This document shows, one piece after another, positions 1 through 55,454 of a DNA stretch of 64,000 nt; the stretch's first letter is position 1, and each line of letters begins with the position of its first letter. Source of the stretch: Balanoglossus misakiensis (lineage: Eukaryota; Animalia; Hemichordata); assembly GCA_040954595.2 (NCBI GenBank), contig CM082578.2, positions 15,112,998 through 15,176,997 on the forward strand, in the 5' to 3' direction. A program made the position numbers and the translations under genes. Under the pieces are notes generated by a model. The model ran no database searches and was not told the origin of the DNA. It was given only the letters and a program-made list of their open reading frames with translations.

Positions 1-74
1 GTTCTGGCCTTGGCAGCGTTGATCATTCTCAGCACTATAATTACACTTCTTGTTGCCAACAGGTGGCGGCTGAG
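1..74 (+). CDS. 3' end of an upstream TLR-like ectodomain/transmembrane exon (paralog of 1390-2384), truncated by window edge
   Basis: Frame 1 reads VLALAALIILSTIITLLVANRWRLR, 15/25 identical to LLAVVAVLIISVMITLLVYNRWRIR at 2311-2384. It ends at the same point, AG|GTAGGT (phase-2 donor at 75-76). Confidence 0.85.
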
Positions 75-1389
75 GTAGGTCCTGTTTCAGATGAACTGCT
101 ATCAATGTCAACACCATCAACTTCCTCAAACTTGACATTCACTCGTCAATAACATCTGTTCCACTGCTTTTAGCTCTTAATGATAATTTCATTGTTGGGG
201 TTTATTTCGAACAAAGTACAAATTCCGTCCAAAGTTTGACATGTGCCAACGTACCATGTGTGAATAGTCATACACAAATGAGCACAAGGACGAAACGAAA
301 CTCCTGCGCTTTGGCGCTATGCACCACAGAGGTGTGATCACCAAAAAGTTTAAGTTATCTCCCTTCGTCAGAACAGATACCTTCCTGAAAAATACTGAAC
401 GAAAACAAGACCGAATAATGCGAAATACGTCACAACTTAAAGTTGTTTTTGCATTGGCCGACATCATGGCAACTTAACTATGTAAACATGAAATGACATG
501 ATCTAGTCTTGTCTTGTCTTAGGTCAGGTATGTACCAGATTTCCAGCATAACAACTAAAACATTTACCGTCGTCACTGAAGAATCCTTATTTTGCTATGT
601 ATAGACATTAACTGGTTACGACCGTACCATAACATTTCCTCATCGATGCGTGCATAAAATATCAGTTTAGGTACCTTTGTAGGGTTGGGGAAAAGGTTGC
701 TAGATTTAAAACTACATTTACTCATTCTTGCAATATAGAACAAACTATGGCCTGACACTCTTCCGCCAGACTGTTTGTTCCTTCCTGGTATGATAGTCTC
801 GGTACAGTTTGTTGTTCTCAAACCCTGGCATATTTCGTGCATTTTGTCCAAACAACATTGAAGTCGACACGAAAGTAGCTCGAACACAATTAGGTGTATT
901 GAAGTCATGGGAAAATGTGTTAATCTCTAGGGTCAGGAAATCCGCTGTTTTCTTTCTTTCGGGAGATCGGAAAACAGGCATGACAAGAGAAAGACTCGCT
1001 CTTGTCACCTGACATTTTAAATACGAGTCGTCACGTTCAAATGTTTTGAGCATTGTCGCCTCATGACAGACAGATGTCAAAATCTTTGTTTGTGAAGAGG
1101 CTGTTGAGGTAGAGGTTGCGGCGCATATGTGTAACCATTGCAAATATTTTAGATAAGAACGTCTGATTAATTACAACTTGATCCATATGGATTGGACTTA
1201 GTACTAATATTCAGTCAAAAGATTTGCATGCACCAGCTGGAGTATTGCGCCCTCGACGGGCTTGTTGAGCACCGCCTCCTATTCTGTATCTAATACTAGA
1301 AATCACATGACCACTACAACTTTTGCGTGGTTTGCCCAGACCGATTTATAGGAAGTTAGTGTACAGTTAGACTTTTGTCAGCTGCAGCG

Positions 1390-2384
1390 ATGGTGATCAA
1401 AACATCTGCTTTAACCCTGCTTTGCCTCTTAGTCTTGGGTTACACGCGTTACGCGAATGCCGGCAGTTGTGTTCCAGCGACGAACGTGTCTTGCCCAAAT
1501 GTGTGTATTTGCGAGTACTGCGACATGCCGTGGCCGTTTAAAAGGCTGAGGGTTGACTGTGCATCAAGAAAGCTGAACGCTGTACCAGACAATATACCGC
1601 TGGAAACGGAATCTTTGAACCTGGCCCAAAATGGTATCGGCCGACTTATAAAACCTGGCGATATCTCGTATTTGAAGAGACTCTACCGACTGGACCTGAG
1701 CTACAATCTTTTGGACAGCAACGCAATGTATCCCGGGGTTTTTGAAGGCCTCGAAAATCTGAATAATCTTATTTTGAAGTTTAACCGAGCTCTGAAGACG
1801 ATCCCTAACCAGTGGTTCCGAACTTTGAAAAATCTCTGGAAAGTTGATCTCGAAAGAGCACACGTAGTAACGATTGAAGAAGACGCCTTTCGATTTAATT
1901 TGAAATTACGATTCATTGTTCTTCGCGACAATCAGATAAAGCACATCGCACCTTCGCTTTTTCGGGGACTTCCGTCACTAGAGAAAGTTTTGTTGCAAAC
2001 GAATCAGTTGAAAACACTTCCTCACGACATGTTCAATGGGTCTCTAAATACAGACGAACTAAATGTCTACAACAACAAAATTACAGTGATCTCACCGACA
2101 ACAGGACTTCAGAAGATGGAGAACTTGAAAAGACTGTCCGTGTATCAGAACCCCTTGGATTGCGGCTGTGATCTTGTCTGGTTTCGTCGGTGGATTGACA
2201 CTGTTGACGTCATCGTCAAGGTTCACAACACGACGTGTGCATCGGGAGAAAATATCATGAAGTTCAATCCCGATGACCTGGTGTGTGAATTTCCCGTCGT
2301 CATGGTGACCTTACTGGCTGTTGTAGCTGTTCTCATTATCAGTGTCATGATCACATTACTTGTCTATAATAGGTGGAGAATAAG
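1390..2384 (+). CDS. Toll-like receptor exon: signal peptide, LRR-NT, ~8 LRRs, LRR-CT, transmembrane helix
   Basis: ATG 1390; hydrophobic signal (LTLLCLLVLG); LRR-NT CPNVCIC...VDCASRKLNAVP; LxxLxLxxN repeats; LRR-CT NPLDCGCDLVWFRRWI...C...C; TM helix; phase-2 donor AG|GTATGG at 2385. Confidence 0.93.
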
Positions 2385-3508
2385 GTATGGCCGAAATCTA
2401 ACTGTGAAACTGAAAGTTGATTGCGCTGGTATTTAATGGTGCAGCTAGTACAAAATTTTAGAAATATTCTAACTTGAAAAAAATGAACAGTCTGCGTTGT
2501 GCACCTCCTTTATAAACTTGAACGTGCTCGTTTTGAAAATATGCATATAGATTTGTGGCTACATCATGAGCTGGACGTCGTTAAAATTCAGCCATAATGC
2601 GGGATAAAGCTTAGCATTCTGACCCCTGTTGTTTGCAGAATGGCTCGCCTCTTCGTGAACTCCAGTGACCCTTTTGTATCAGACCCTTTTCAAGATCCGT
2701 GCAACGATTTCGTGGTCCTCACCCCCGTACGATACACAAGTATTATAACTTTGTGGTACGTTGGGTTTGTTGAATGCAAATGCCTGCCAGCAGTTGTTAA
2801 TCTTTCACTGGGGTTTGTAGTAGGTTGAGATCACCATGTTGCAACCATGGTTACGCCATTTTGAAATGCGGTCTGGCATATCAGATTCGAATTTATTGAC
2901 ATCGTCCGTTTCAACATGACCGCATATACAGTGCCCTGAAATCCTTGAAAAGAAAACTCACTGAACACACGTCGCGTATTGAATTGCCAGATGAAAAGAG
3001 GAACTTCGCGAATTTTCAACGGGGAAATTTCTTTTTCCTACTCTCAAGTACTTCTCATATTGTGTCGTTGCATAAGAAAGAAACCAGCATATCGCATGTC
3101 GTAATATCTCCATGCATTTTGAAAACAGTCTAAGTAATAGGAGAACAATTTCGGTTTTCTTACCAACGCGATTAGCTGTAAAGTACTGAGCATCTTTCTA
3201 TTGTTGGTGGGGTGCGTGTGTGGGCGAACAGGGTCAATCACATGACCCGGCTCTTGATGATTTGTCGGAAAAATCCGGTTTTTCGGTCTGCACTGACAAA
3301 CAGGTTATTTTGGGTTGTTTCACTCTTCTGCTTTCTTGTCCATGTACATGTATTTCAATTTCGATCATTTCACTCGTGACTATGATTAGCCAAGAGCTTG
3401 GGTACCCTTACACCCACTGCAAGACAATTGTAACACACTTATTTGCTACGTTTATTTCGCAGGTTCTTTTCTCTAAAAGTTGCTTCTTGTCTTTTTATAC
3501 ACGTACAG

Positions 3509-4034
3509 ATACTATCTATTTCGCATCAAGGTATTCTTCAAAGGGTACATTCCCTTTGATCATAAGGAGGAACTTCCCAGCGAGTATAAGTATGACATTT
3601 TTGTGTCACACTCTAACAAAGACGAGGACTGGGTTCTTCAAGTTCTGCGGCCAACACTCGAAAGTCCGCCTTACAACTACAGACTATGCCTGGACTTCCG
3701 CGATTTCATCGTCGGCAACCACATTTCGGAGAATATCCTGGCTGCTATCAACGAGAGCCGAAAGACGGTTTTTGTGGTCACCAAGGAGTTCATCGTCAGC
3801 GAGTGGTGCTATTTCGAGCTGGAGATGGTTCGCCAGAAGATGTTTGACGAGCACCGAGACGTGGCCGTGTTGATTCTCAAGGAGAACGTGCCAACCGCCA
3901 GAATGCCGGGCCTACTGCAGTACCTGATGAGGCGCGGAAATCACATCGAATGGAGCGATGATAAACAGGGACAGAAGTTATTCTGGAAGAAACTGGAAAA
4001 CTCCGTCAAAGAAACCGCGGTCAACATGGTTTGA
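3509..4034 (+). CDS. TIR-domain exon of Toll-like receptor (joined to 1390-2384 gives a 506-aa TLR)
   Basis: Acceptor ...tttttatacacgtacag|A completes an Arg codon in phase 2. Box1 YDIFVSHS, box2 RLCLDFRDFIVG, SEWCYFEL, box3 FWKKL, stop TGA at 4032-4034. Confidence 0.93.
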
Positions 4035-5394
4035 TCGGGTAAACTTGAATGAAAGACTATCTCAGTAGAGTAAAGACAATTTGCCCAGAATCATTATTCT
4101 GTGATTTCTATATAGTTAACGACACAGCTCATTCTCTTTCGTTTTTGTCCTTCCAGGAATTACCTATACATGTAGTGTTTTCATTATCAGTATAAATCTA
4201 CATCTGGGGTCCACAGATCCGAGGAACTCTAATACTTTGATACCCCCTAGCCGGGGTTATAAAAGTCAATGACGTCGGATTTATCCACCTTTAAGTTCAA
4301 AGTTATACCAATTGAGTTAACAGATTTCGTCATATTTCCAGCATGATAGTTCAGAATTTTTGATAGCATCGCGACTAATTTGCATAACAATACACGCAAT
4401 TGTAATGTTAGTTAGATCCAATTGTTTTCCTTAAAGTAAATGGTAGCTCTGCAGAGGAGAACACCGCTAATTATGGTTCTCGTTGTAGTTATACAGGTTA
4501 TAAAGGCCGCCGTGTAGTGAACATGTTTTTTAGAGTAATTACTACAGATGTAAGGGCTTATAATTAACATATCTGTCTATGTTGTGACATAATGACTACG
4601 ATAAAATTGAAAGAAGTAGCATGCTAGGTTTTTCGTGTCAATTTTCAATCACGACACAGGAATTTTATGTGAACTTTGTGCCGTTTCCAGATAAACACGC
4701 AGAATTAGCTTTACATACGCGATACAAGCTCTTCGGGGTCGTTTTCAGGACAAGATACTTTGTATATTGACTTACGAGTCCTACACTGTCCATGACGTTG
4801 GGGGCGCTACGCATGGGTCGATCAAACGATGCGTGGTCACAGATGCTGTGGTCGAAAAGTTGACCAACCTTCACTGAAACGGAAAACAAATCAACATGTT
4901 TTCACTATTTCCTATTGATAGGAAATTCGTTATATAAGATATATCCTACAGCTGGCGTAGTTTGGATAGTTGAGCGACATAGTACGCACCTCAAAATCTT
5001 TTAGTCAATAGTTTTGTGTACGTTGTTACCTGTTTTCGTGTCTGTCATCAACGTGTACCTGAACGGGCAGAGGACCCACTGACAGAGACTCATTCACCTG
5101 TGAGTTGTGAGTCGAGAACGAGGCAAAGAGAGATATGAGGGAAATTAGCTCGCTGACCTGAAAACTTTACAATAGATCTATAGATAGTTGTAATACTGTT
5201 AATGTCTTAAATCACATTTAGTGGTATTAACAAAATAAAAATCTTATAATTATAACGATAACATTTCCATTTGGGATAGGGTGACGAATGGTGACTTGTT
5301 CATTTGTGATGATAGCGGGCGGGGTTATTTAATCTGAGTTCTGGGTCAAACATTCCGATTTCATAGATAACAGCCCCAATTTTGGTACAATTGT

Positions 5395-8300
5395 ATGTCG
5401 CACAATCAAACAGTTTTGTTCAAATCAAACATGGAGTCGTACGAAGTTGGCGGCACTGGAGAAGTGCATTCCGACGCGAAACCCAAGAAGGGATGCTTCG
5501 TGACCAGACAATCGGCAGTGCTGATCACCATCGTTGTCATTTTCTTTTTCTTTCTCGTTGCGGTATTATTCTACTTCTTGCCATTATACAGCACGCTTCC
5601 AGATGAGGAGTGCACACCGGCCCCAGAAGAAGATCTGGATCCCTTGCCACCGATACCAGCCGATCCAGTGCCCACGGAGGACCCACGTGGTCCCTACGAA
5701 GGCAGACTACCAGACTCTCTTCTACCCGAACACTACAATGTTTGGATAAAAACATATCTGGATGACGAGGATGGAGACAAGAAATTCACGTTTGACGGTT
5801 CGGTTGACATACACCTGAGATGTGCCGAAGACACAAACATCATCAAAGTCCACTTTTTGCGTCTGAACATCGACTATCAATCGATAAAGGTTACCCACTT
5901 ACAGACGAACAACAACCAAATAGACCAAACCATAAGGGACATATACACTGAAGAAATATACGACTTTTTGGTGATTGAACTTGAAGAGGTGTTACTGACT
6001 GGAGAATTATACTCACTAAGCATAGACTATAATGCTACTCTCCCAAACCAGCCCTATTTCGGCTACTATCGGTGTAAATATGACGTTGGCGGAGAAACGA
6101 GGTATTTGGACTGTCATTCATTGTTTATTTCATGTTTCCATTTTCACGATGTTGAACGTGTTAACCACCCTATTATACACTGAACGGCACCTTTGGCCAC
6201 TAACTATGCATGCACACGGGAGACACACGCGCGACCACCATGGGTACTGATGACATCACTGGAATGAAAGATTAACTTAATGGCGATGTCTCTGACCTTT
6301 AGACAGCTAATTTTATAGCGCAGGGTAAAGAGGATAAGACCTATCAAAGCAAATATTATTCTGTCATTCATTAAACATGAACTCATGATGTTTTTGCTTT
6401 TGGGGTCAACTCAGTCTTTCCCTCTTCTTGACAAGATGGCAGAGAGAAAATTAAAATACTGTCGAGTCCTACAATATCGTTGTTCTTTTTGTTATTTTCA
6501 GATGGATTTCTGGCGCTGTTTTCGAACCGCACGGGGCAAGGATGACCTTTCCGTGTCTTGATGAGCCTCACCTGAAAGCCACGTTCGACATAGTCTTGGT
6601 GCACAGACCAAAACGAAGAGCTTTGGCAACTATGAACGAGGTGGCGTTTGAAAGCGACGGAGAATGGAACACGACTTATTTCAACCGCAGTGTGATCATG
6701 CCAACTTATACTCTGTCTATCTCTCTGACTGATTTTGCAAGTTTGGAAATGACGACGCCGAATGATATATTGGTGGGTATAAATGTTTTATGTAGCAAAC
6801 GCTTCTTATGCAAACTATGAAGACTGCGGTTTTTGCTTTTAACCACGTGCGCGTATTATGTATGACGGGCCAATATCACTTCAGCTTGATTGACTCTTAA
6901 AGTTACATTTCATTTTATTCACAGTTTCGTGTGTGGGCAAGTGAGGAGGACATCATGGCCGCCAATTATTCCCTGTACATAGGATCTGCCTTGTTGACAT
7001 ATTTCGAAGATTACTTCAACCAAAGCTACACAATACCAAAGATGGGTTAGTTTAAAAATGCAAAACTGATGTGATGTGATGTGATGTGATGTGATGTGAT
7101 GTGATGTGATGTGATGTGATGTGATGTGATGTGATGTGATGTGATGTGATGTGATGTGATGTGATGTGATGTGATGTGATGTGATGTGATGTGATGTGAT
7201 GTGATGTGATGTGATGTGATGTGATGTGATGACCAGTAATATTTTTTCATAGATGCAATATTTATAAGTACTGTAAGACATATCCTTCCCCCCACCAGAT
7301 ATGCTGGCCTTCCCCGAGTTTGCTTCTGGTGCTTTGGAATGCTGGGGGCATGTAATGTACCAAGATAGCGCCATGTTGTATGATCCTGAGGCAGATCCTC
7401 CAACACAAGAAAAGAGGGTTGCGTCGATTGTCGCACATGAAATATCTCACATGGTAAGTTCCTGTTGTCAGATTTTCAGTGAATTTCTTGAGGAGCGCCC
7501 CCAACGACAAATGTTTATGCAATATTTTCTCTTTTTGTATTATTTAATATATAGTGAATGAATATTTTGAATTTTTATCATTACAGTTATTGCGAGTATG
7601 TGTATTTTTATGCGGTGACTTTACATGACAATTTTTTGCAACTTAAAAAGTTATTTTGTTTCTTTCAGTGGTTTGGTAATTCAATTACTCCAGAGTGGTG
7701 GGACCATCTTTGGCTCAATGAAGGATTTGCCACTTTCATTCCATACATAGGCCTCGAACGATTCTACCCAGAATGGAAAATTGTAGGTCATATCAAGTTC
7801 TCCATTGAGATGATTTGATTTTTAGAATTCTCTCCGTCGACGACTTATTAGAGAAAGGTTAGGATTCATTCTCCATATTATCTCATTTCATGTCACTCTT
7901 ATGTCTTATGGTGTTTGTTCTTCTCCTTAACAGTGGGACCAGTTTCTTACCGATGATCTCGCTCCCGCATTTTCGGTGGATTCTACATATCAGTCAAAAC
8001 CACTGATCCGAACAACTGAATGGGTGGACGAGATATTTAGTATGTTCGATACAATATCATACAGCAAGGTACGCCGTAGCTATCATAATTACACATTCGA
8101 ATGTTTGGTATGTTATTAGGCCTAAATGAAGTCTTGAAAACAAACGAAATATATTGCAAATTTAATTCATTGTGACTTGAAAATTGTCAAATAACACTGT
8201 CGGTTTCTCTCTAGGGAGGTTCTGTTTTGCGGTCACTTAACACCTTCCTACGTAACGACACCATTTCCGAAGGCATAAAGCGTTATCTCCAAGAACATGA

Positions 8301-12383: not shown

Positions 12384-15300
12384 TCAATCATCCTTGTACC
12401 GATAAAGAATAGTCGGTATGGTGTTAGACACAGCATCGTACAGGTTGCCAAGGACAACGTGTTGGTTACCGCTGTCCGTGAAGGTTTGACAGAAAGTTGC
12501 ACCATGGGACGAAAGTTCATCGAACATTTTAAATGATTTCCCGTTGAATTTGTATATCACCGAGTTGACGTCATAGGACGTGCCGTTAAAGTGATTGGAT
12601 ACGAGCAAGTACTGCTCGCCATCCATTTGGAAAGGGCACGCCATCTCGGCACCGACGGTGGCGATTGTTCTCTTCGGATAAAACCGGCCTTCCCTCCAGA
12701 TGTACACCGGAGAACGCTGGACATACTGCATTCCGAACTTGTAGTGGTAGCGTTTATTGATGACGGAGAGCAAGTACATGTTACCGGCGAAGTGGAACGG
12801 CACCGATCCAGTCGACACGTGAGGTTTGCGAATAGGCAGCGTTTGGTGGTACACAAAAGAGGGCGTTTCAGTCTCGGTGGTGAACTTGTAAATCGTCGTC
12901 GGATTCGTCTTGTCGATGTCGGATTTAGTCAGCGCCAAGTACAAATCGACGCCGACGAAGAAACTGGACGACTGGACAGTGGCGGTTTCCCTGATGGTCT
13001 GCATCAGTTCAAATGTCACGCCACTCCACTTGTAGATCAAATGATGGGTGTCCGGCCACACGGCCATGGAGATGAAACTCATCTGTCCGTTCAATGTGCT
13101 GGTGGCAAAGCTGTGTAGGTGTACTACCAGTCCGTGTATAACAGTCTCCGTCCCGTATTCGACAAACTTGTGGCCGTTCCACCTGTATTTGAACAGCTTG
13201 GTCCCAAAATGGATTGACTGCTGCATGGCTATGACGTAGTGGCCGCCATCCATTTTGGCGTAGTCGCATTCCACCAGTTCCATCCCTTTCATGAGCATTT
13301 GAAACTGTACAAATTTGCCGTCCATTAGCTTTAATACGTTACACCTGTCGTCGAATTTTGGCATTGTCAGGTATGTTGTGCCGTCGATAGAAAACGCAAC
13401 AGCTTCCTCGCTTCCCATCAGCTGTTGTACAGGAGTGAAGTGTTGGCTGACACTGTCAACTAAGCCAGCACTTATAGTTGTAGCAGATGTTGTCGCTTCT
13501 ACCTGCACCTGGTGACGTGTGGTCAATCTGATACGTTTGGTTTGAGTTTCAGTTAATGTTCTCGTGTTGGGGTTAGTAGTAATTTCTGGTCGTTTACCGT
13601 GCGTTGTTGGGTTAAATACAGATAACAATGCATTTGTTGTCTGTGGTTGTTGAAGTGTATTCGGCATCTTAGTTTTTAAGGCGACATCTCTGGCATTTTC
13701 AGTTGATGATTGCACCGTCTCTGTGTGATAGGCATATGGCTCCGAGCTTGTCGGCCATTTGTCAATAGTCGTCACAAAATGGCCGACTGGTTCCGTCATC
13801 ACCGGAACACTTTCACTGGGGATCTGGACAATTGCATCGGAACCACTCGGTATTTTTCGGGTAGACGAAGGCCTTCGGCTTGCTTCAGAAACCGGGGATC
13901 GGCTTGGAGCGCTGTGTTCAGTAATGCGGACCACATCATCTTTTTGAAGCGAATGGTGGTCAACCGAGAATCTACTCTCGTTGATTGATAACGTGCTAGA
14001 AACTATCCCCGTCACTTCAGGGATAGGACTGTTTATCCGGGACCTTTCTGGAGTCGTTTCGTCAGCAATGCTTTCACTGGCAGTTGTCGCCTTTGGCAAT
14101 ATCTTACTGGTAGATGCAGGAGTAGGTGACGTCATCTTTGAGTGCCTTGGTGGATACGTAGAAAATTGTATTTCTTCCATGAAATCTGAACTAACCCTCG
14201 GTTGAAGGATACTACCAGCTACACTGTTGACGACACGGCTAGTTTTGCTTACTTGAAGTTCCTCGGTTGCTGAAGACACATTTTGTTGTTGTCTTGTCTC
14301 CTCAACGAAGTCGTCACCGACATCGTTGGTTGTGATGGATGACGTTCTGTCTGTCATTTCATCCGTTCTGTCTACAATTAACGGCGCAGGCGTGTTGGTT
14401 ATTGATGTATTCCTGATACTTTGGTTACCCGCAATGGGAGAGACGCTGTCTTTATCGTTGTCATTCTCGAGCGACAGCGATAACTCACTCGCGCTGTTAT
14501 TGTAGAACTTTTCAGTGGCGTCAACTGGCAACGGATAGTTTCCTATTCTGTCAGTAAATGCTCGATTCAGATAACTCAGTTTGTGGTCCGTTTTGCCAGT
14601 GTACCCGGTCACTCCCGTGGGTTGACTTGTTTTTGTTGTTTGGATTTGAAAACGTGGAGTCGGAATACCCGAGGTCGCGACGAGCGAAGTTTTGTTCAGA
14701 TCCGTGCTGATCTCTTCGTGCATTGCTTGTGACGTCACGTTACGTGTAAAACTTGACGTTTCTGGGCCAGGCTGTTCTAGCTTGTCATCTGTCGGACGGA
14801 TGACTTTCCCCTCAATTGTCGACATAACCGTGACGTCACTAACAGGGGACAGATGCATCGTGGCATTCACGCTTCTTTCCTCCCCTCGCCGATAACTGCT
14901 GACAGGAGCTGTGTTGACTATATTATCGTCGATTGGCATGCTGGTTTCTCTGCGGGGCATGTTGTCTTGATCATTAAACCCTGCCAAGTGAAATAGAACA
15001 CATATTTCAGCTCACCCGTCTTACCCCGTAATTCCATCCCTACGGTGTCGATGTAATTCAAATCGGTTCTTCTCTTTAAAGTTAATAGCCACACCCTATC
15101 ATTTGGCCTGCCGTGTTTATCTTTTTGCCAGATTAATTTCAGTGATTTATTATAAAATGTCAAGGAACAAATCTACTGTTTGCTAACATAATAATAGTTA
15201 AATAGCAAAGTTGTTAGATCACCGATTGCCCATATTAAAACAAGCAACTCCTGAAGTTACTGGTAGCGGAATATGTGTCTTTCAAGCGTATGTAGGTTGC

Positions 15301-17774: not shown

Positions 17775-20700
17775 ATGCCACTGAAAGTAGATGAGGAGGT
17801 CGCATCCGGGGCAGCGGCGAGGAGTCAACATGGTCAACGACTGAATGATGGAGATGACATAGAAAACAAGGGCAACACGTCATCTCCACGTGAGATTGCC
17901 AGACTACCATGGAAGAAGGTAAGAGTTTTCCATAAACATCTTAATTGAAGGAATTGAGGATAAACGAAACGGTATTCTACATGCAAGATTACTTACATTA
18001 CAATCAAGAATATGATATGCATCATATGCTCTCAGCAAATGACTTGTGTCTATAGGACAATCGAAAGTCACAAAGGCAGATGCCATCTTCAATTTTAATT
18101 ACTGTAGCGATTTTGTCCACAGGTTACGGCCATCTGTTTAATCCAGTATACCAATTCTTTCAGTTTGACTGTTGTGTACCCGTTTCTACCCTTCATGGTT
18201 CATGATTTCTTTCCCTATCTGCAATCATCAGAGTTGGGTGAGTACACTTTTCTCTGACAAGCCATCTGTCTGACCGACACAAAGCATATGTAATTATAAT
18301 AACAAACTTCATAACATCCTAATTCATATGTTTGTTTTCTTAGTATTGTATTTCATGTACGTTGAATAATTGAATGACATTTCACAGATAAAATTGTTCA
18401 GGATAGACTGCGCACTATAAACATACCCTGGTTCGGCCAATAGGGTGTCAAGGTTCAACACGCCACCACCCTATACCATTTTGACAGTCTGAAATGCAGT
18501 TTCTGTATCTATTCTTTGTTGCGTTTAATAATTGCCCTACTCTTTTCACTTCCAGGTTTTTATGCGGGATTTCTCGGGGGTGCGTTTTCTGCTGGGAGTA
18601 TATTTGGTAATATTATTGTAAGTTGCCTTTTAACATTAAATATCATGTAAAACACGATGCATTTGAATATATATGGAGTAATTCCCTCGACACGGCGTTG
18701 TGAAACACTTCGTTTATATAAAATACGCTAACTTCTGTTTCAAACCCGTGTTTAATATTTCAGTGGGGAAGATTTTCTGACCGTCATGGTCGTAGACCCG
18801 CTTTACTGCTGGGTATATTGGGAACGGTGGTGTTTATTATGCTTTTTGGTTTTAGGTGAGTAATTATTTGTGTATTGATTTATTAAAAGCCTGTCAGTCT
18901 GTCTGTCAAAAACCCACCTCTGGTTTTTGTGTCCACCCCACCCCCATTTAAAATTATTACATGATTTGTAACCATGTGCAAGTCTAATCAATGGTAGTTT
19001 CCACATATCTCTAAAGTTAACAAGTGGTATTGCCTACTCTTTTGCAGCATCTCTTTCATCTGGGCTGTATCATTTCGTTTTCTGTGGGGATTGTTCAATG
19101 GCAACACAGCAGTGGCGAAAACCTACCTGAGTGAAATCTGTGATGATACTAATGTGGCCAAAGGGTTCTCACTACTTGGCACCGCTGGAGCAGTTGCCAG
19201 ACTCACAGTATGTCTTATTAATAGAGTTGTACGTCTTTGGTCTTTTGTGTTGGGATCATTATTTCTCAATGAAAAACTGTGAACTTCAGAAAGACTGTTA
19301 GCCAGTTTCAAGTTCAGTCTTATTCGATACATGAATCATAGAATCTCAGATAACTACCACAAGTTGTAACTGTCGAATGAATACGCTGGACACATTAATG
19401 CATATGTCATATGTGTGCACACACGTTGAACACCTCATCTTACTGTTAATTTCTGTCTATCAAAGGCGCCAGCTGTATCTGGTTTCTTGAGTTGTGCCGC
19501 TGTCAAGTATCACGGACTGAATGTGCCTGTGTTGAAAAATTTCCCTTACCTGCTTCCGTGTCTGATCAGTGCTGGACTTTGCGTTTTGACTTGGCTAGGT
19601 AGGTAAATATTGTACAGTATTTTGTCTAACAGAAGGTGACGTCATACCTTCCATTATCCTTCAGTATGCACTACCCAAGATACACTCGTATTTTGTAGTT
19701 GGAACAATTATTCTCTAAACATTTCACGAGGGAGATAAAGAACCGCCATACTCATCCCTTTTCAGCTGCCTTCGTTTACCTCAAAGAGACTCTTCGAAAG
19801 GGTCAAAGGTCAGCCGGGGCTGGAGATTCTGCTGATGACGTAGATTGGGACAGCAGATCGTCTACTTCAAAACCACTTGCAGGGGACGGCGACTTACCCA
19901 AGGATGGTCCTTTGAAATCACGTGATAGAGAAAGATCGCCCTACGTTGTGAATAGGAGAGTACAGATTGTGTTTTGTTGGTTGTGTTCGTGTTGTTGTCA
20001 ACATCGCTATGAGCGGCTGAATGTGGATCAAAAAGGTGAAACTGAAAGCTGTTAATACTGTAATATAACTTGTATTTGTTTTAACATCCTTTAAATAGGT
20101 TGCTTGTCGATTGAAAAAATGTTAAAATCCCTTGCTACGGTTGCGAAAAGCAACGACTCTTTAAAAACTTTCTTTTGACACCAATAATGCTATATTATGT
20201 CTGTGGCATTTCAGATTCCTGTTGCAGAAAGTGCAGGTGTGGAATTACCAACGTGTGTTCACCTCTGAAAGACAGAAGAGTTTTTCTTGCTGTATCAATT
20301 CAATGTTTATTATCATTTTGCGGTTCAATACAGGCAGAGGTAAGCAATATTTAGTTTTTAGGAGTTTATTAGGGTAAGGATAATAATGGTAATATTATTG
20401 GCCATTCATAATCGGTATATGAGAAGAGTGACTGGCTTGTATGTCTAACTGGTGTTCACTACTTCACTGAATGGCATGAAGAAAGGTACTTATGTATCAA
20501 CAATTTCCCAAAAATTGAGATCAACTAAACATTTTATCATTTCATTTCAGATATTGCCACTATTGTTGGTGACAAACTATCAACATGGCGGCTATGACTT
20601 TGACACAACTGAAATCTCCTTGTTGTACAGCATGATGGCCATACCAGAGACTGTATACCAGGTAGGAGTCCGACAACGTCACACAGTTCACCAACATAGA

Positions 20701-22412
20701 TCTTGATAACTTTGAAGTTATGGCAAAGCGGTTTCAAAACGGTTTATACAACACAATAATATCCTCGAACCACTTTACCACATTTGTCTCCATGTGTCTT
20801 TCGTCTGTTCCCCTTTCCAGATTGTGATCTACCCAAAAACAGTGAGGATACTGGGTCTTAAGAGAGTTTTGCAGATTGGATTTTTGGTTGGTGCATGCTT
20901 TTTCGCTTTAATCCCATCCATCAACCGGATGACCGGCCCTATCATCAAAAACTGTAGTAACACTCACGATGTGAACACGTTACGTCCCGCAAGAAGCGTT
21001 GTTATGGCAATCGATCCTCATCCTCTGATAGTTCCAGTCAATGAAAGTCGACCATCGAGCAGTGAGCTCGCAAAGCTTTACTTTCAGAGCTCCAATGAGG
21101 ATGATTCCGACAGTTCACGTGACCCTGGAGAAGCTGACGGGATGCTGACTGGTAACAGAATAAAGATCGAACTGTTCAACGAGTCCCTCAACCCAGATAA
21201 TGAGTCCCAGCCCAAAGACGGACTGAAATTGTTAGATGAATACACCACCACGCAGGCGACAGCACCCGCTCGAAGTCAGAGCGACCCACCCACAGCCGAA
21301 CCATGGACTAACATCACCACTAACCTGATTAAACAGTGCAAGATATTATCTGACATTAACGACGATGGACCTGTGCCGTTGCAAAACGTACCTATGAAAG
21401 TGTGGGTCGTTCTCTTCGTGATCGTCTCGGGGAGTACACTTGCCAGGTAAGCGCTTTTATACGTTACTTTGACATGATATGGTATGATGGGTTCCGAGTT
21501 CGTATCCCTTGAAATACTAGTGCATTGTTAGAAAGAAGGTGTAAAAATATTCTCTGGCTTGAAGTGCACAGTGTTACACAGTCATTTTATCTGTCGTTCA
21601 CACACTCCAAATAAACATCTTTTCTTCATTAAGATTTTTCACTAAGTTCCCAATCCTCTCCCTTGTATATATTTAGGATGACGACAGAAATATCTTCAAC
21701 GATCATAACCGGTAACTCTTGTTTGGTAAGTTCAAACCTATATTTATTTTTGTTATTAAAATGTTCAGTTTGCTTCAAAGAACCTCGCATTAACTATGAT
21801 TATTCTGTAGGCCAATTAATCGCTACAAATAAATCGTTTTCGGTGAAATTATATTAAAAAAATAACTCAAAGTTTCTCTTTTATGGTTAACAGTCAAAAG
21901 ACAAGGGAACAGTTTATGGTATTGCACAGTCGATGACTTCTGCTCTCAGATCTGTTGGTCCGGCAGCTGGCGGCAGTTTCTTCGCTTGGACTGAAGAAAA
22001 AGGTAGGGTCAGTTTGTCAGATCGCCAATCCGTCTCTGTCTGTCTGTCTGTCTTTCCATATGCCTGTCTATCGGCCCGATTCCCTGCTTTACCTTTGGGT
22101 GTCACAGTGGCTCAAATTAGCGTCAACAATTATAGTACATTTACACTGTAGCGTCGGTATTGTTAGCTTTCTGGCGAGGTTTTCTGCTAAACTGCACGGG
22201 TACCCAAACTGGACTGCTGTTAAAACAGTTGTTTTGCTTTGCTTTGAATTTTAGGGTTGCCATGGCCATTGAGTTATCATTTGACTTTCTACTTGGTCTT
22301 CGTTATCTTGAATGTGATTAGTGGAGTCTGTTTCTTCCTGCCAAATTCCATCAATAAGAAGAGAGTCGAAGAAGACGAAAATCAAAATCTTAATCGTCCA
22401 GCTACTGCCTAA
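17775..22412 (+). CDS. MFS transporter, ZIFL/YCR023C-like, tandem copy 1 (~14 coding exons)
   Basis: MPLKVD...LPWKK start; MFS motif A WGRFSDRHGRRP; FRFLWGLFNGNTAVAKTYLSEICDD; FPYLLPC; KGTVYGIAQSMTSALRSVGPAAGGSFFAW; stop TAA at 22410-22412. GT-AG exons keep frame. Confidence 0.88.
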
Positions 22413-23822
22413 AAATAACCAATTAATTACGTCACTTGTTGGGTCAAATAAATCGATGTACTGCAAACCTACAAATGTCTGATTGTCGACATAATTTCCC
22501 CTTGACATTGAAATGTTTTGGAAAATAGACAAACTAAAACGCGTAATTCCTGATTGACGAAAAATCCTGGTTAATTCAATTCAGCTCATTAATTTAAAAC
22601 CACAGTTGGGATAGGGACAGATATTTCCTGATCTGACTCGTTTGTGTAGAGTAGAGTCCTAAGCAGCTAAAGCGCCCCCAACACTGGCATCTAACTAGTG
22701 ATGAAGTATCGGGCACGGAGCTGCAGCAGGTGCAACGTGTATATCGTACAATATGGCACATCATATAATATCCCTTATAGTTCCCCTTCTTCGATAAAAT
22801 TGAAGGTTAGTATTGTTTTGTAGTTGGAAGTTGAGTGACTGGGCCATGCCGTGAGGAGACGACTTCCAAACGCTCCTTTTCTCTTTCACTAGATCGAACC
22901 ATGATGGGTTTGGCAGAGGAGCGCCCAGCTCGACAATTCAGTCACTGTAGTCTGTAGGGTAGACATTTATGTGGTATTTTAATTGTGTGACAGAACGGTA
23001 AAAATTCCATGACGTGCATATTGTCATCTCGCGTCCATGAGCATGGTCAGACAGACATCACCGTCGAAAACTGCTCCAAATAAAGCTAATAGCTGTGCCT
23101 AACGGTACACGACTGCATGATGACGAAACATGATAAATAATAATCATGCGAGTTGCAACAGCTGTGTGCCCACTAACGGATTGTAGACTAAAAACGTATG
23201 TCGCTATTTTAATCTTGTACAAATTATTGACAGTAGAAGCGTCTACTGTTCAGTCTGCAATAATAGCAAGGAAAGGAATAATGCCTGAAAGAACAATAAT
23301 TAAAGATTAGCATTGCTTGGCAACAGTTGCTATGGGGAACATGCTGACCTGAAGGACAAAAATATATTGATATTTAAAAGTATGCGTGCATGTAGGTCTT
23401 TTGTAACACCAGATGGCCAGATGGGGGTGAGTATGAAATTATCATTTTATGGGAAGTGCAGTTGCACAATTTTTGTTCCTTTGCTATTATGGTACTGATG
23501 AGTGGAGGCATGGATATGTCCATCCTGCCTATTTCAGGCAGTCCTGTGTCTTTTACGACTGTTATTGTGTTTGCAATTTTTGTATGCCAAACAAGCTGAA
23601 CTTTGCCAGCATTCTGTTGATCACTGAAACAGAAAATAGCTTTTGCTCTTTAAAAAAAGACAATTTTCATTCTCTAATTTTGTATACTAGTATTCTTTGT
23701 AGATGTTATTAATGTTGTGTTTGTAAATGTATCATCGAGCAGGGTGATGGCTGGCACCGTTGATCAGACCACTCTAATATTGTCACACACATAGGCTTGG
23801 AATTGATATCTTCAGTGGGAAT

Positions 23823-26800
23823 ATGCCAGTGAATGGACAAACAGATAACTCGCCGATTGGAGTCGGAAGAACCGAAGGTAACATCAATGATGCAAATGAA
23901 AATGAATTGTTTTTAAATGATGACAACCCCACACCTGCTCAGCATGAAATGACACAGTTGCCATGGAAGAAAGTAAGTATAGACCATTTACATGACCCTT
24001 ACATGACCTTACATCATGACATTTTGTTGGTATGTTTAATCCACTATTTTGATTCAAAGCTTGGTAAATGCATAACCATAACACTTAGTTCTGTATTGAA
24101 TTGTCGTTTCGTCTTATTTTCATTTATGATTTTTGATTTCATATGGAATTTGTCATAAGTATTAATATTTCATTCAAATTTAAAAAAAAGATGCATATTA
24201 AATATAATGTTGATTTCTTGGATGAAATGCAAAATTGCTTCAATTTTTGGTTGTTCAATACAGAGACATATTAGAGTAATGTGTGTTCCAGGTACTACTT
24301 TGTTTTAATTCTTGAATTTCTTTCCACAGGTTGCTATCATCTGTTTAATCCAGTACACCAATGCATTCTGTCTGAATGTTGTCTTCCCATTTGTACCATT
24401 CATGACCCATGATTTCTTTCCATCTCTGAGAGCCTCACAATTAGGTGAGTATGTAATTGCCACTCTCTCAAACTTGACACTGTATTGATTTCATACTTTA
24501 TTAGTATATTAAACCATTTCTTATCAAATGGGAGTACAATGCTCTTGACGCTATTTTTTCTTAGGTTTCTATGCAGGGTTTCTTGGTGGTGCATTTGCTG
24601 CAGGGAGTGCATGTGGCAATATCATGGTAAGTATATTGTTTAATAGTGTGCAGTCCATCAAATGGAGGTCTAATGGAATAAAAATGTGTGTCCATGTGAA
24701 ACATAATATGATTAAAATTTCATATTTTTTTATTTTCTCATGAAATCTAGTGGGGTGCACTGTCTGACCGTTATGGTCGCAGACCTGTTTTTCTACTCGG
24801 GATTCTAGGATCAGTGGTGTTTATAATGTTCTTTGGTTTCAGGTAAGTGGTTGACCCTGTGATAGTAAATATCATCATAGTACTTACCAGGTATATATTT
24901 TCGTAATAAGTCGAATGTTGACAAAGTAAAATTACCAGGAATCAATACAAAATGAAAGTGAATTTATGCAGATTCCCCGCTATGAATATATCACCATAAT
25001 TAAAATTTCAAGGATAATTCTATCAATGTCATACTTGTGAGAAAATTTGTCATTTTATTTCTCCTTACAGCATCTCTTTCATTTGGGCCGTATCATTTCG
25101 CTTTCTCTGGGGTCTTGTCAATGGCAACATAGCTGTGGCCAAAACCTACCTGAGTGAAATCTGTGATGACAGTAACATGGCCAGAGGATTTTCACTTCTA
25201 GGGACAGCTGGAGCCATTGCCAGATTCACAGTAGGTTTCATTCACTACATGTTGTTTGGAACTTCTTGCCTCATTTTTTTGCTTTCAGGTAATGATTTAC
25301 TTTTAAATGTTTCAAACAATCACTTTCATTTCAGTAAAACTATTATTTTTTTCAGAATAGTATGTCAGAAAGCACATATTTTTGTTTGAAATACCTATAA
25401 TTGTCTTGTCAAGTGAATAATTTAAATACAAGTGAAAGTTTCTGAACTGACATTTAAATCAAATATGCTCTTGTTTTCTATCAAAGGCCCCAGCTGTATC
25501 TGGTTTCTTGAGTTGTGCCGCAGTCAAGTACCAGGCACTGAATGTGCCTGTGTTGAAAAATTTCCCTTATCTGCTTCCATGTCTGGTCAGTGCTGGACTT
25601 TGCATTTTGACTTGGCTAGGTAAGTGGAATAACTCTTTGGCTAGAATATATCAGCATGATTCTTCCCTGTTGGATGAAAATATTCTGCATGTTTTTATTC
25701 ACGATGAATTTAATGTTAAAGGGCTGATGCAAAGAATATTTTGTTCATTCAATAAGCCTATTCCACTTCATAAAGTTTAAACACAGGAAGGAAAGTCTCC
25801 AATTATTATTCTTGCCTCTTTGGTAAAGGCTTCCATTCCTTTGCCATTTGGGTTACATTGCCCTCCTGTAGGTTACGAAGCATTTTTATGTGTGGAGAAT
25901 GGCAAGGCTTAATTCTGACTGATCGTGATTCAATTTGGAGTTGTCCTCACTGTCTGTGTATTTGAGCAGCCTTTTGACAAGTCAACATATATTTATATGC
26001 AGTTTTCTAAGTCTTCCATGACTTGGCCTGTTGTCATAATAGTAGAATATAGTGTAAAATTCCTAATTAGTGGTGAAATCTTAAGCCTGCTAACCTCCTC
26101 TTATTGAAGATAGAACCATAACCAGCCTTCTTTTGATTGCTATGAAAAATGTCGATGCTGACACTTAATAGTAATCCACTTTTCACAGGTACTTTCTTCT
26201 ACCTCAAAGAAACTCTTCAAAGGGTTCCAAGAGATGCCTCATCTATCAGAGATGCAGTATCCACTAATGATGTGGATCAGGATGATAGACAGCTCCTTGG
26301 CAACTCAGAAACACATTCCGAGACAGATTTACCAGAAAGTTTAAGTGATGGAACGGGATTGCTTCCTAACATTCATTCCATCAACCAAACTGAAGATGAT
26401 GTTGTCAAGATAAGAAAGGGCTTGTTCTATTCGTGTTGTCCGTGCAGCCAGCGAAATCATTATGAAAGACTGGCAGAGGAACAGAAAGGTAGGAACAAAG
26501 AATTGACTTGTCCTGTAGTGATAATGATGTGAGCTTGTTGCAAGGCAAAGGCATTGCTACAAGTATTCTTGTATTGGTTTGCCTGTGTTCATTAGAAGCT
26601 TTTTTTCCATGACATTCTGCAATATTATACAGTTCCCTTCTTAGCAAACGTTGCCTTTTTGTTTAGTCATGTTATTACCTACATGTACTTAGCAGTTGAT
26701 TTCTTCCAACCTGTTCCATATGGCAACATAAGTAATGTTTTGGGTATAATTCTTCAAATTATGATGTCAAGTCTGCAATATTGTTTTTGGTCTGTTGTTT

Positions 26801-29403
26801 GATTACTTTCAAGTTTTGTTTGCAGGTTCTTTGAAATTTGAGAGGAAGGTTGCTTGGGATAATGTATGATGTGTTGAAAATGTGATGAAAACTTCATTCT
26901 GTTTTAAAAAAGATTTGTTTTTTTCTCTTTCAGATTCTGCATCGTGTTGTAGACAGAGTAAGTGTGGGATCAGCACCCTGTGTTTGCCCATGAAAGATAG
27001 ACGAGTTTTCCTTGCAATATTAATCCAGAGTGTCTTGGCATTTTGTGGCTCAATATTGTCAGAGGTAGGTGTTTAATCTGCTGTGTATTGCTTTCAATAC
27101 ACAGGTCAATTTAATACCTTGTATAGACTACAATTGTTCAGGTTAATTGTTGTGTGATACAAACAGTGCATTATCGAGTATTATATTATACCAGTATATT
27201 GATGGTGTAAATCACGCTATTTGATTGGTCGAGACACGACACGTGACCGTGATATATTAGCCATATACCACAGTCATATATCATAGTTAAAGAAAATGCC
27301 TTTTTAAAACGTTTTATGCAAAGTTTCAATATACTGGCATAATATAATAGCAATAAAACACCCCCAGCCATGGTATACCACTCGATTTTGACCAGTTCAA
27401 CTCCATATACGCACTCGCTATCGCTCGTGCGTATATGTCGTGAACTGGTCAAAATCTCGTGATATACCATGGCTGGGGGTGTTTTATTGCTTAAATATTC
27501 ATCTTTACAAATTTGGTGATTCTGATGTAAAATTCTCATTTCATTTCAGCTATTGCCACTGTTATTAGTGACAAACTATCAACATGGTGGATATGACTTT
27601 GACACAACTGAAATCTCATTGTTGTACAGCATATTGACAATTCCAGAGATGGTGTACCAGGTAGACAATCTTTCGTCTTGTTGCATAAATATGCTGTTTT
27701 TACCATTTTGACTAATTTGTAACAGTTAAAACAGTTTCATCAAAATTTCTGATGTCAAAAGTGTTTGACAACTGTTTATTTTCTCTTGTAGATACTGATC
27801 TACCCCAAGATGGTGAAGATTTTGGGACTGAAGAGAGTTCTGCAAATTGCTTTTGTGATTGGTTCCTTGTTCTTTGCTCTAATACCGTCCATCAACAGAA
27901 TCGCTGGTCCCATCAATACGAACTATAGTAGCAGTACTTACATCTTGGGACCTGCAAGGCATGTTGCTATGGCAACTGTTCCTCAGGTTTTTCCATCCCC
28001 TGAAAGTCAGACACTTAGCAGCCAGCAGGGGCAGCTTGACTTTGAAGTTTTGAATCACAGGAAGGAATCTCGTGGCCTTGAAGATATTGATAGGATGCAA
28101 AACGATCATGGAATTCATGTTGAACAATTTAGCCAGCTGTCTCAAATGGATTCACAGAACAATTTCGCCATTCAAGCAGCACAGAGCACCATGACGTACG
28201 GTGACTGGTCACCATGGACTAATATCACAGATAATTTGATTAAACAGTGCAAGATATTAACTGGGAGCAAGGGAGATAGACCTGTACCTCTGAAAAGAAT
28301 ACCCATCAAAGTGTGGGCCATTTTGGTTCTCGTTATCACAGGCAGTATAATGGCAAGGTAACATTGAGACGTTGGTTATAAGGTTGAATTATTTGACAGG
28401 ATGCTGGCCTCCTCTAGAGAGCAAATTGAAGTGATAGAATTAATGTTTGATGCATGTGTCCTGGGACAAGTGCCATGAAATATTTATTGCTGGAAAGTAA
28501 TCGCCATTATCAAGAAGTTTGGAGTAAAACGATTTTGATCTTCTATTTTCTCAGATTGTCAGCATTTATATCATCAACTATCATAATTGGAAATGTCTGT
28601 CTGGTAGGTTGAAATATCAACACTTTCTTACAATGCATGATGGGTGCTATTGTCATTTGAAGGTCATAGTAATGTCAGTGGTGATTGTAACAGTAGTGTA
28701 TTGTTCAGCCATTGTAGCAATTGTTTTTATATTTTAATTTTGCACTAGAAGAAAAAAAAGAATCTGTAAAATTGGGTTAGATGATGAAAACAATTTATTA
28801 GTGTTTACTGTTAATCTGTTGTCTTTGTTTTTTCTTTTTCAAGCCCAAGGACAAAGGAACAGTGTATGGAATTGCTCAGTCAGTGACTGCTGCCTTCAGA
28901 TGTGTGGGCCCTATAGCAGGAAGTAATTTCTTTGCATGGACTGAAGAAAACGGTGTGTTGGTTGCTTTTTCATTATCACTGTGGGATTAACAAAAATTAA
29001 TACAAGACATTTGATCAACAAAATAATCATACACTATGGGATGTGTAAATATGAGTCCTTTATTAAGACACAACTATAATGCATGACAGTGTCCACCATT
29101 CAGTTTAAAATTATGTGCAATAGACTGCAATTTTTGTAGCTTGGAGAATTTTTTTTATATATTAGGTGACTAGATATGAAATACTGTTATTTGACAATGG
29201 TCTCCAAGCCATTATCATTTTGTCTGTTTACTTGTTTGTGTTTGCTTACAGGGTTATCATGGCCGTTGAATTACCATTTGATATTTTATTTGCTGGCAGT
29301 AATCTTGAATGTGGCTTGTGGGATGAGTTTCTGTCTTCCAAACTCTATTAATAAAAAGAGAGTAGAAGAGGATGAAGATACAGATGAGAGGGTTACTGTG
29401 TAA
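23823..29403 (+). CDS. MFS transporter, ZIFL/YCR023C-like, tandem copy 2
   Basis: Same exon series and phases as copy 1: LPWKK, WGALSDRYGRRP, GLVNGNIAVAKTYLSEICDD, FPYLLPC, LPNSINKKRVEE; stop at 29401-29403. Confidence 0.88.
27181..27497. mobile_element. Non-autonomous element with ~70-bp-arm imperfect hairpin (Crypton-like/MITE-like), in an intron of MFS copy 2
   Basis: Inverted repeat at 27349-27491: AGCAATAAAACACCCCCAGCCATGGTATA...TATACCATGGCTGGGGGTGTTTTATTGCT. Absent from the shorter equivalent intron of copy 1 (20340-20550). Family assignment is by resemblance only. Confidence 0.65.

Positions 29404-31307: not shown

Positions 31308-45040
<13,733 letters not shown>

Positions 45041-50889: not shown

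Positions 50890-55454
<4,565 letters not shown>

What the first reader, a model, noticed from the sequence alone, without database searches (positions are those of the whole stretch)
1..4034. TLR locus with tandem variable ectodomain-TM exons that appear to share one constant TIR exon
Seen: two paralogous TM-ending exons (1-74 and 1390-2384) stop at the identical codon position (NRWRLR / NRWRIR, AG|GT, phase 2). The only TIR exon (3509-4034) has a phase-2 acceptor that completes the Arg codon for either. No TIR exon is recognisable in the 1.3 kb between the first donor and the next ATG. Shared residues often use different codons (AAC/AAT, CGG/AGA, AGC/AGT, GTT/GTC, ATT/ATC, CTT/TTA), so this is an old duplication kept as coding, not a fresh partial copy. 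The TIR exon also looks more GC-rich than the ectodomain exon. Established: clustered protocadherins and UGT1A use variable first exons spliced to constant exons; expanded invertebrate TLR families are usually described as whole-gene duplicates. Inference: this is the 3' end of an array in which many ligand-binding ectodomains plug into one signalling module, a way to diversify innate immune receptors. Limit: only 74 nt of the upstream cassette is visible.
Basis: partly seen in the sequence, partly recalled or inferred. Interest (0 to 1): 0.88.

Follow-up and report, generated by a model that had tools for sequence, protein, structure and literature searches.

The report
Two receptor heads, one signalling tail
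In an acorn-worm-like animal, two neighbouring Toll-like receptor head exons lie in front of one signalling (TIR) exon, so both heads likely splice onto the same tail, although most relatives have their own TIR and no RNA was available to confirm sharing.

Summary
Exon ends 74 and 2384 are paralogous, both carry a phase-2 AG|GT donor, both join in frame to the only TIR exon (3509-4034), and no TIR remnant lies in 75-1389. The upstream tail shows purifying selection (pS 0.67, pN 0.29, p=0.005).

The locus belongs to an enteropneust (acorn worm) family of short TLRs. Gene models place the intron after RWxIR across the family, so a matching donor is expected of any paralog. Relatives are mostly whole-gene tandem duplicates: 6 of 8 Ptychodera flava ectodomain units and all 8 Glandiceps models found have their own TIR, and none of 15 TIR sequences are identical.

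Two results keep sharing plausible. TIR exons are homogenised within a species (93-98%) while ectodomains are old (54-89%). And one P. flava model has the same order: TIR-less ectodomain, type-A ectodomain, TIR.

Best reading (0.38): the upstream unit lost a redundant TIR and borrows the next one. Many-to-one protocadherin-like array: 0.12. Orphan or pseudogene 0.25, TIR-less decoy 0.18, misassembly 0.07. No RNA or upstream DNA could be examined.

The parts
1..74 (+). 3' tail of an upstream TLR ectodomain exon: transmembrane helix and juxtamembrane NRWRL(R), cut by the window edge
   Evidence: translation; 14/24 residues identical to the unit-2 tail, pS 0.67 v pN 0.29, Fisher p=0.005; matches the end of the family ectodomain profile, iE 0.003
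73..80 (+). Phase-2 donor AG|GTAGGT; read-through gives AGG then TAG stop (76-78)
   Evidence: Sequence; the AGGTRRGT pattern occurs about 0.11 times per kb on the + strand
75..1389 (+). Non-coding gap with no TIR exon or remnant and no AATAAA/ATTAAA; presumed promoter and 5' UTR of unit 2
   Evidence: Lack of a poly(A) hexamer is weak: 341/2000 shuffles and 10/45 same-size tiles also have none. Promoter role is inferred
1390..2384 (+). Complete ectodomain exon of unit 2: hydrophobic N-terminus, Cys-rich cap, about 8 LRRs, LRR C-cap, transmembrane helix, NRWRI(R); 'type A', closest to the P. flava P0001 first unit and P0004 second unit
   Evidence: Pfam LRR_8 E 4.6e-23; 78% and 75% identity to those units, tree support 92/92; signal peptide and LRR count by inspection
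2385..3508 (+). 1124-nt phase-2 intron, GTATGG...TACAG
   Evidence: Sequence; same intron position inferred in relatives from split or mis-spliced models P0002, P0014, P0016, P0018/P0020
3509..4034 (+). Only TIR exon in the window (juxtamembrane linker plus TIR domain, stop TGA)
   Evidence: Pfam TIR E 2.3e-20; single hit of the family profile; 77-79% identical to five P. flava TIR parts
5234..5239 (+). First and only AATAAA/ATTAAA on the + strand in 1-5400; candidate poly(A) signal for transcripts from either unit
   Evidence: use as a poly(A) signal is inferred, and variant hexamers lie nearer the stop

Best explanation
This is the 3' end of a tandem run of short, two-exon Toll-like receptor genes of an acorn worm, in which the second-last unit has no TIR exon of its own and likely splices its ectodomain-transmembrane exon over the next ectodomain exon onto that gene's TIR exon, so that two receptors would share one signalling tail. 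Shown: the anatomy, the in-frame junctions, the missing TIR, the selection signal, and the discordant histories of ectodomain and TIR in relatives. The result would be local sharing inside an array that probably still holds several TIR exons upstream.
For: No TIR or remnant between the two ectodomain exons. Donor intact and in phase; 24 codons with no stop or frameshift and a hydrophobic helix; synonymous changes exceed replacement changes (13/19.4 v 15/52.6 sites, p=0.005). No canonical poly(A) hexamer before 5234 (weak). TIR homogenisation: P. flava TIR parts are 93-98% identical to each other and 77-79% to the window's, while the window ectodomain is closer to P. flava type A (75-78%) than type A is to other P. 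flava types (60-71%); site-pattern tests give p 2e-8 to 2e-14 in 6 of 6 P. flava triplets and p 8e-7 to 6e-12 in 4 of 4 Glandiceps/Saccoglossus triplets. P. flava model P0004 has two ectodomains and one TIR, the second ectodomain being type A, the window's order; P0016 is an intact, diverged (54-62%) ectodomain ending exactly at WRIR with no TIR, and no TIR-only P. flava model was among the 2 hits of 36 candidates.
Against: No transcript evidence was obtained, and only 74 nt of the upstream exon are visible. The selection signal covers the pair's whole history, so a recent death of the upstream unit is not excluded. The P. flava TIR-less unit in P0004 is frameshifted in its transmembrane segment (alternative-frame score 49, 0 of 500 shuffles, best of 8 offsets tried), which fits decay or an assembly error. 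An ectodomain-only model can be an annotation failure: Saccoglossus XP_006825336.1 and XP_002741808.1 were split and are joined in XP_002741808.2. No annotated pair shares an identical TIR (0 of 105 pairs). AU tests did not reject the concordant trees (p 0.075 ectodomain, 0.33 TIR). Other YAG sites with equal or better pyrimidine tracts lie between 75 and 3508. The upstream tail could not be assigned to a P. flava type.
Confidence: 0.38

Rival explanations
1. Orphan or pseudogene. In a birth-and-death TLR array the upstream copy lost its TIR exon by deletion or partial duplication and is silent or decaying; the donor and helix persist only because the loss is recent.
For: Whole-gene units are the norm in relatives. 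Broken units are frequent in P. flava models: frameshift in the P0004 first helix, frameshifted TIR in P0015, helix missing in P0002. In sea urchin 67 of 253 TLRs (26%) are pseudogenes (PMC3367398, passages).
Against: Intact donor and 24 clean codons with pN well below pS. No trace of an old intron or TIR in the gap, which fits an old loss or a clean deletion. P0016 is an intact, long-diverged TIR-less model.
Confidence: 0.25
2. TIR-less membrane protein. The upstream exon is expressed unspliced and stops at TAG 76-78, giving an LRR-transmembrane protein ending RWRLR that would act as a decoy or co-receptor for the TIR-bearing neighbour.
For: Stop immediately after the Arg codon. Models with the same end exist: P. 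flava P0016 and crinoid P0034 and P0044. Purifying selection on the helix.
Against: The stop is a by-product of the donor consensus AG|GTAG. A strong donor would not need to be kept. No canonical poly(A) hexamer follows it (weak). One such ectodomain-only model in Saccoglossus was an annotation split.
Confidence: 0.18
3. Protocadherin-like array. Many ectodomain exons upstream, each with its own promoter, all splice to the single TIR exon at 3509.
For: The TIR exon is the last element of the run and the only one in view. Ectodomain types predate the split from P. flava while P. flava TIRs postdate it, which one ancestral TIR copied later would also give.
Against: Ptychodera, Glandiceps, Saccoglossus and crinoid models mostly pair each ectodomain with a distinct TIR. 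Gene conversion explains the same discordance more simply, as in mammalian TLR1/TLR6 (PMC2077338, abstract).
Confidence: 0.12
4. Assembly artefact. A misjoin in a repetitive TLR array removed the upstream unit's TIR exon.
For: Near-identical TIR exons and C-caps in the P. flava array invite collapse. The window's raw reads could not be checked.
Against: No N in the window. Collapse between two TIR copies would leave ectodomain-TIR, not ectodomain-ectodomain. The gap has no similarity to intron 2385-3508 and no notable repeats. P0004 shows the same order in another assembly.
Confidence: 0.07

Closest known systems
Enteropneust short TLR models (P. flava XP_070557310/311/402/403/404/406; Glandiceps talaboti XP_077977596, 598-602, 604, 605; Saccoglossus XP_002741806/808, XP_006825331/333/336, XP_002733943)
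   Same: About 500-residue TLR with a short LRR ectodomain; RWxIR|Y junction; near-consecutive accessions, those of P. flava and of Glandiceps each with one longest-contig length.
   Different: Most units have their own TIR exon. The window's upstream unit does not; nor do 2 of 8 P. flava units in the models.
Variable-first-exon clusters: clustered protocadherin alpha/gamma and UGT1 (PMC1885805, Background section)
   Same: Paralogous exons encoding the N-terminal recognition part, in tandem with same-phase donors, before a downstream exon encoding the common C-terminal part.
   Different: Those have about a dozen variable exons, conserved constant exons and proven splicing. Here two heads are visible, splicing is unproven, and related species keep many TIR exons.
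Mammalian TLR1/TLR6 gene conversion (PMC2077338, abstract)
   Same: Tandem paralogs with diverged N-terminal LRRs and homogenised C-cap and TIR; the same pattern appears in the P. flava units.
   Different: TLR1 and TLR6 stay separate genes. Here an intron separates helix from TIR, so the TIR exon can be lost and shared; the helix itself is not homogenised (48-70% in 6 of 7 P. flava pairs shown).
Insect PGRP-LC (PMC12459809, passages)
   Same: One innate-immune receptor gene gives several ligand-binding ectodomains by alternative splicing, signalling through one pathway.
   Different: PGRP domains rather than LRRs, and no TIR. Variable exons lie inside the ectodomain. That the signalling tail is N-terminal and common to the isoforms is recalled, not read.
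Sea urchin 'short' TLRs (nine LRRs) and 'intron-containing' TLRs (PMC3367398, passages)
   Same: Short ectodomain with N- and C-caps; a single intron occurs in the separate four-gene clade.
   Different: In sea urchin these are two small separate groups (5 and 4 genes). Orthology with the window's family was not tested.

Membership tests
Toll-like receptor, single cysteine cluster (unit 2 + TIR exon) | LRR ectodomain with terminal Cys caps | tested here: met
   Pfam LRR_8, LRR_4, LRR_5, LRR_1; caps CVPATNVSCPNVCIC and NPLDCGC read in the translation
Toll-like receptor, single cysteine cluster (unit 2 + TIR exon) | One transmembrane helix followed in frame by a TIR domain | tested here: met
   Hydrophobic segment by inspection; in-frame join; Pfam TIR 73.6 bits against a cut-off of 21.3; relatives co-linear
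Toll-like receptor, single cysteine cluster (unit 2 + TIR exon) | Ligand binding and MyD88/NF-kB signalling | not testable with these tools
   Inferred from family only
Variable-first-exon / constant-exon cluster (protocadherin, UGT1 type) | Tandem paralogous variable exons with same-phase donors that fit one acceptor | tested here: met
   Two exons, both phase 2, both in frame with 3509; but the phase is the family's normal intron
Variable-first-exon / constant-exon cluster (protocadherin, UGT1 type) | One constant region for the whole array, none between variable exons | tested here: inconclusive
   True for the visible 4 kb; upstream DNA not held; false for related species' arrays
Variable-first-exon / constant-exon cluster (protocadherin, UGT1 type) | mRNAs joining each variable exon to the constant exon | not testable with these tools
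   No reads could be laid on the locus; no annotated relatives with identical TIR (0 of 105 pairs)
Variable-first-exon / constant-exon cluster (protocadherin, UGT1 type) | Own promoter before each variable exon | not testable with these tools
   No eukaryotic promoter tool; weak candidate acceptors at 1381 and 1387 leave a non-coding 5' exon possible
Variable-first-exon / constant-exon cluster (protocadherin, UGT1 type) | Architecture conserved across related species | tested here: inconclusive
   2 of 8 P. flava units lack a TIR in the models, one frameshifted; 0 of 8 Glandiceps models found; protein models only, no genomic DNA

The most novel reading that the evidence does not exclude
Acorn worms have turned a TLR tandem array into a protocadherin-like locus: old, diversified LRR ectodomain exons act as alternative first exons that all splice to one terminal TIR exon. 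With the mixed E-T / E-E-T layouts of P. flava as the intermediate, this would catch a variable/constant receptor locus being built from whole-gene duplicates through TIR homogenisation and TIR loss.
Probability: 0.12. Interest if true: 0.85.

Novelty: new variant of a known kind. Interest (0 to 1): 0.5.

Why it matters
If sharing is real, a TLR locus would make several pattern-recognition heads from alternative first exons on one signalling exon. None of four searches aimed at this (0-20 listings each, seen as listings) showed such a TLR gene; the library lacks most subscription papers, and Tassia et al. 2017 on deuterostome TLRs was seen only as a citation. The comparative series (crinoid and Glandiceps: one TIR per head; P. 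flava: mostly own TIRs, nearly identical, with some heads lacking one; this species: head-head-TIR) offers a testable route from whole-gene duplicates to variable/constant clusters. One RT-PCR decides it. Even if the upstream unit is dead, old ectodomains riding on repeatedly renewed TIR exons is a clear result for hemichordate immunity.

Tried and rejected
Whole genome: none held, so nothing upstream of base 1 could be read. RNA runs: no RNA holder listed for 1-4300; this is no evidence either way. Metagenome scan with the ectodomain: 1 locus from 281 pattern matches, 31% identity, not used. Earlier scan findings: nothing by place, words or sequence; 8 loosely matching prokaryotic TIR notes, irrelevant. 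AU tests of tree discordance were not significant; the site-pattern test was run afterwards, on triplets chosen after seeing the trees, and treats sites as independent. GC richness of the TIR exon rejected as evidence. Lack of poly(A) hexamer in the gap judged weak. Two NF-kB-like patterns gave no match in 1-5400. The sigma-70 promoter scan does not apply to an animal. Repeat search gave only short two-copy matches. Assigning the upstream tail to a P. flava type failed: best scores 68, 67, 66, 63 against 76 for the window's own unit 2. Rows left out of the trees and identity tables: P0014 (truncated junction), the frameshifted TIR of P0015, and P0017-P0022, fetched later. The motif census misses TIRs and caps that depart from its patterns (for example the crinoid TIRs), so counts were taken by reading the sequences. 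Genomic DNA of the relatives could not be fetched, so their exon layout is inferred from protein models and accession order. No fold or complex prediction was run, as neither bears on splicing.
Full report
Observation. The window opens with the last 24 codons of a transmembrane-ending exon, followed by AG|GTAGGT. A complete 995-nt exon (ATG 1390 to 2384) encodes a hydrophobic N-terminus, LRRs, a C-cap and a helix and ends at the same codon position with AG|GTATGG. A TIR exon starts at 3509; its first base completes an Arg codon for either donor. Pfam confirms LRR and TIR domains. tblastn, a family TIR profile over six frames and local nucleotide alignments against 60 shuffles find no second TIR or remnant. 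The two tails share 14 of 24 residues, 8 through different codons; pS is 0.67 and pN 0.29 (Fisher p=0.005), and similarity ends at the donor.

What it is. All 14 TIR hits among 168 candidates and all 4 ectodomain hits among 1942 candidates come from acorn worms: Ptychodera flava (TIR 78-81%), Glandiceps talaboti and Saccoglossus kowalevskii. The window is therefore most likely from an enteropneust close to, but not, P. flava (inference). A profile of the C-cap and helix also reaches crinoid short TLRs. No genome is held for the window and no RNA could be laid on it, so what follows rests on protein models of relatives.

The intron is family-wide. Saccoglossus XP_006825336.1 ends at TNRWRIR and XP_002741808.1 is TIR-only; XP_002741808.2 joins the two. 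P. flava P0016 ends at WRIR, P0002 joins an earlier point to the same YRLY start, and Glandiceps P0014 breaks at RWKIS. Crinoid models P0034 and P0044 end at or next to the matching place. These break points fit an intron at the window's position (inference; no DNA seen). A matching donor is thus expected of any paralog and does not by itself point to cassettes. The Saccoglossus case also shows that an ectodomain-only model can be an annotation error.

Relatives are mostly whole-gene duplicates. Six P. flava models hold 8 ectodomain units; 6 are followed by TIR-exon sequence (one frameshifted) and 2 are not. All 8 Glandiceps models retrieved from accessions 596-605 carry a TIR; 597 and 603 were not retrieved. 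Antedon P0021 is three head-plus-TIR units fused. Of 15 TIR parts compared, no two are identical. Isoforms sharing a TIR but differing in ectodomain would probably fall below the 90% clustering level and be listed, but the fused models suggest that this annotation has little transcript support, so the absence is moderate evidence only.

Old heads, young tails. The window ectodomain is 75-78% identical to P. flava type A (P0001 first unit, P0004 second unit) and groups with it (92/92), while P. flava ectodomains differ among themselves (54-89%). The five intact P. flava TIR parts are 93-98% identical to each other and 77-79% to the window's. Site patterns differ sharply between ectodomain and TIR in all 10 triplets tested (p 8e-7 to 2e-14), although AU tests were not significant (0.075 and 0.33). 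The C-cap is 85-97% identical across the P. flava pairs shown. This resembles conversion between mammalian TLR1 and TLR6 (PMC2077338, abstract). Homogenised TIR exons are interchangeable, which makes loss of one and reuse of the next a short evolutionary step (inference).

A parallel layout. P0004 reads ectodomain, ectodomain (type A), TIR, the order seen in the window. Its first helix is frameshifted (0 of 500 shuffles, best of 8 offsets), so it may be dead or misassembled. P0016 is intact, 54-62% identical to the other P. flava units and has no TIR; its accession directly precedes P0001, which begins with type A, but strand and order are unknown. No TIR-only P. flava model appeared (2 hits of 36 candidates, both other species). 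The window's upstream tail could not be assigned to a type.

Mechanism. If the upstream exon is transcribed, nothing obvious ends the RNA before the TIR exon: the first AATAAA/ATTAAA is at 5234, though absence over the 1.3-kb gap is common by chance (341/2000 shuffles, 10/45 tiles). Use of the cap-proximal donor with the 3508 acceptor would give a full TLR. Leaving that donor unspliced stops translation at 76-78. Of 85 YAG sites between 75 and 3508, that at 3508 is the best-scoring one that opens a frame over 100 codons from a phase-2 donor, but ten others have stronger pyrimidine tracts. I put sharing at about 0.5 in all: 0.38 local, 0.12 many-to-one. Orphan 0.25, TIR-less protein 0.18, misassembly 0.07.

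Comparison and novelty. It would work like protocadherin/UGT1 clusters (PMC1885805, Background) and echoes insect PGRP-LC isoforms (PMC12459809, passages), but membership is unproven: no junction, no promoters, upstream unseen, and relatives keep many TIRs. Expanded invertebrate TLR families are reported as tandem gene duplicates (PMC3367398, PMC10279657, 10.1101/2025.07.21.665930; passages; the last counts 57 TLRs in P. flava). PMC6946030 and PMC6043800 (passages) added nothing on exon layout. Ten literature searches listed no TLR with a shared TIR exon and no study of this family's exon structure. No supplements were read; gene tables there could bear on the P. flava layout.

Verdict. A credible but untested case of TIR-exon sharing in an acorn-worm TLR array, with a solid side result of TIR homogenisation. 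Interest 0.5; new variant of a known kind.

Noticed in passing
window 5431 to about 12100, +: Multi-exon M1 aminopeptidase (aminopeptidase N-like) gene directly after the TIR exon; it marks the 3' end of the TLR run (Peptidase_M1_N; further ORFs).
   Followed up: partly
window about 31000-38650 and 42754-43059, +: Several short LRR-like pieces (weak hits) lie upstream of a tyrosine-kinase exon on the same strand (PK_Tyr_Ser-Thr E 1e-13); possibly one LRR receptor tyrosine kinase gene.
   Followed up: no
window 12384-15011, -: 875-codon uninterrupted ORF with a long Ser/Thr-rich region and a C-terminal EPTP-repeat region (Pfam EPTP E 3.5e-15).
   Followed up: partly
window about 19700-28400, +: Two tandem paralogous multi-exon membrane-transporter-like genes; ORFs at 20716 and 27792 are visibly similar; no Pfam hit at E 0.01 for three pieces tested.
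   Followed up: partly
window 51149-51640, +: Triose-phosphate-transporter-family (SLC35-like) exon, below the curated cut-off.
   Followed up: partly
window within 6919-7475: A five-base tandem repeat, seen as ITSHH repeats in minus-strand frames.
   Followed up: no
P0001, P0002, P0004, P0015 (P. flava); P0021 (Antedon): Public models of this family are often fused or broken (E-T-E-T, E-E-T, missing helix, frameshifted TIR), so TLR counts from these annotations are unreliable.
   Followed up: partly
P0034, P0044 (Anneissia japonica); P0042, P0082 (unnamed): Ectodomain-only proteins ending at or next to the juxtamembrane basic motif; the helix/TIR intron may be older than hemichordates, and crinoid arrays are worth the same head-versus-TIR count.
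   Followed up: no
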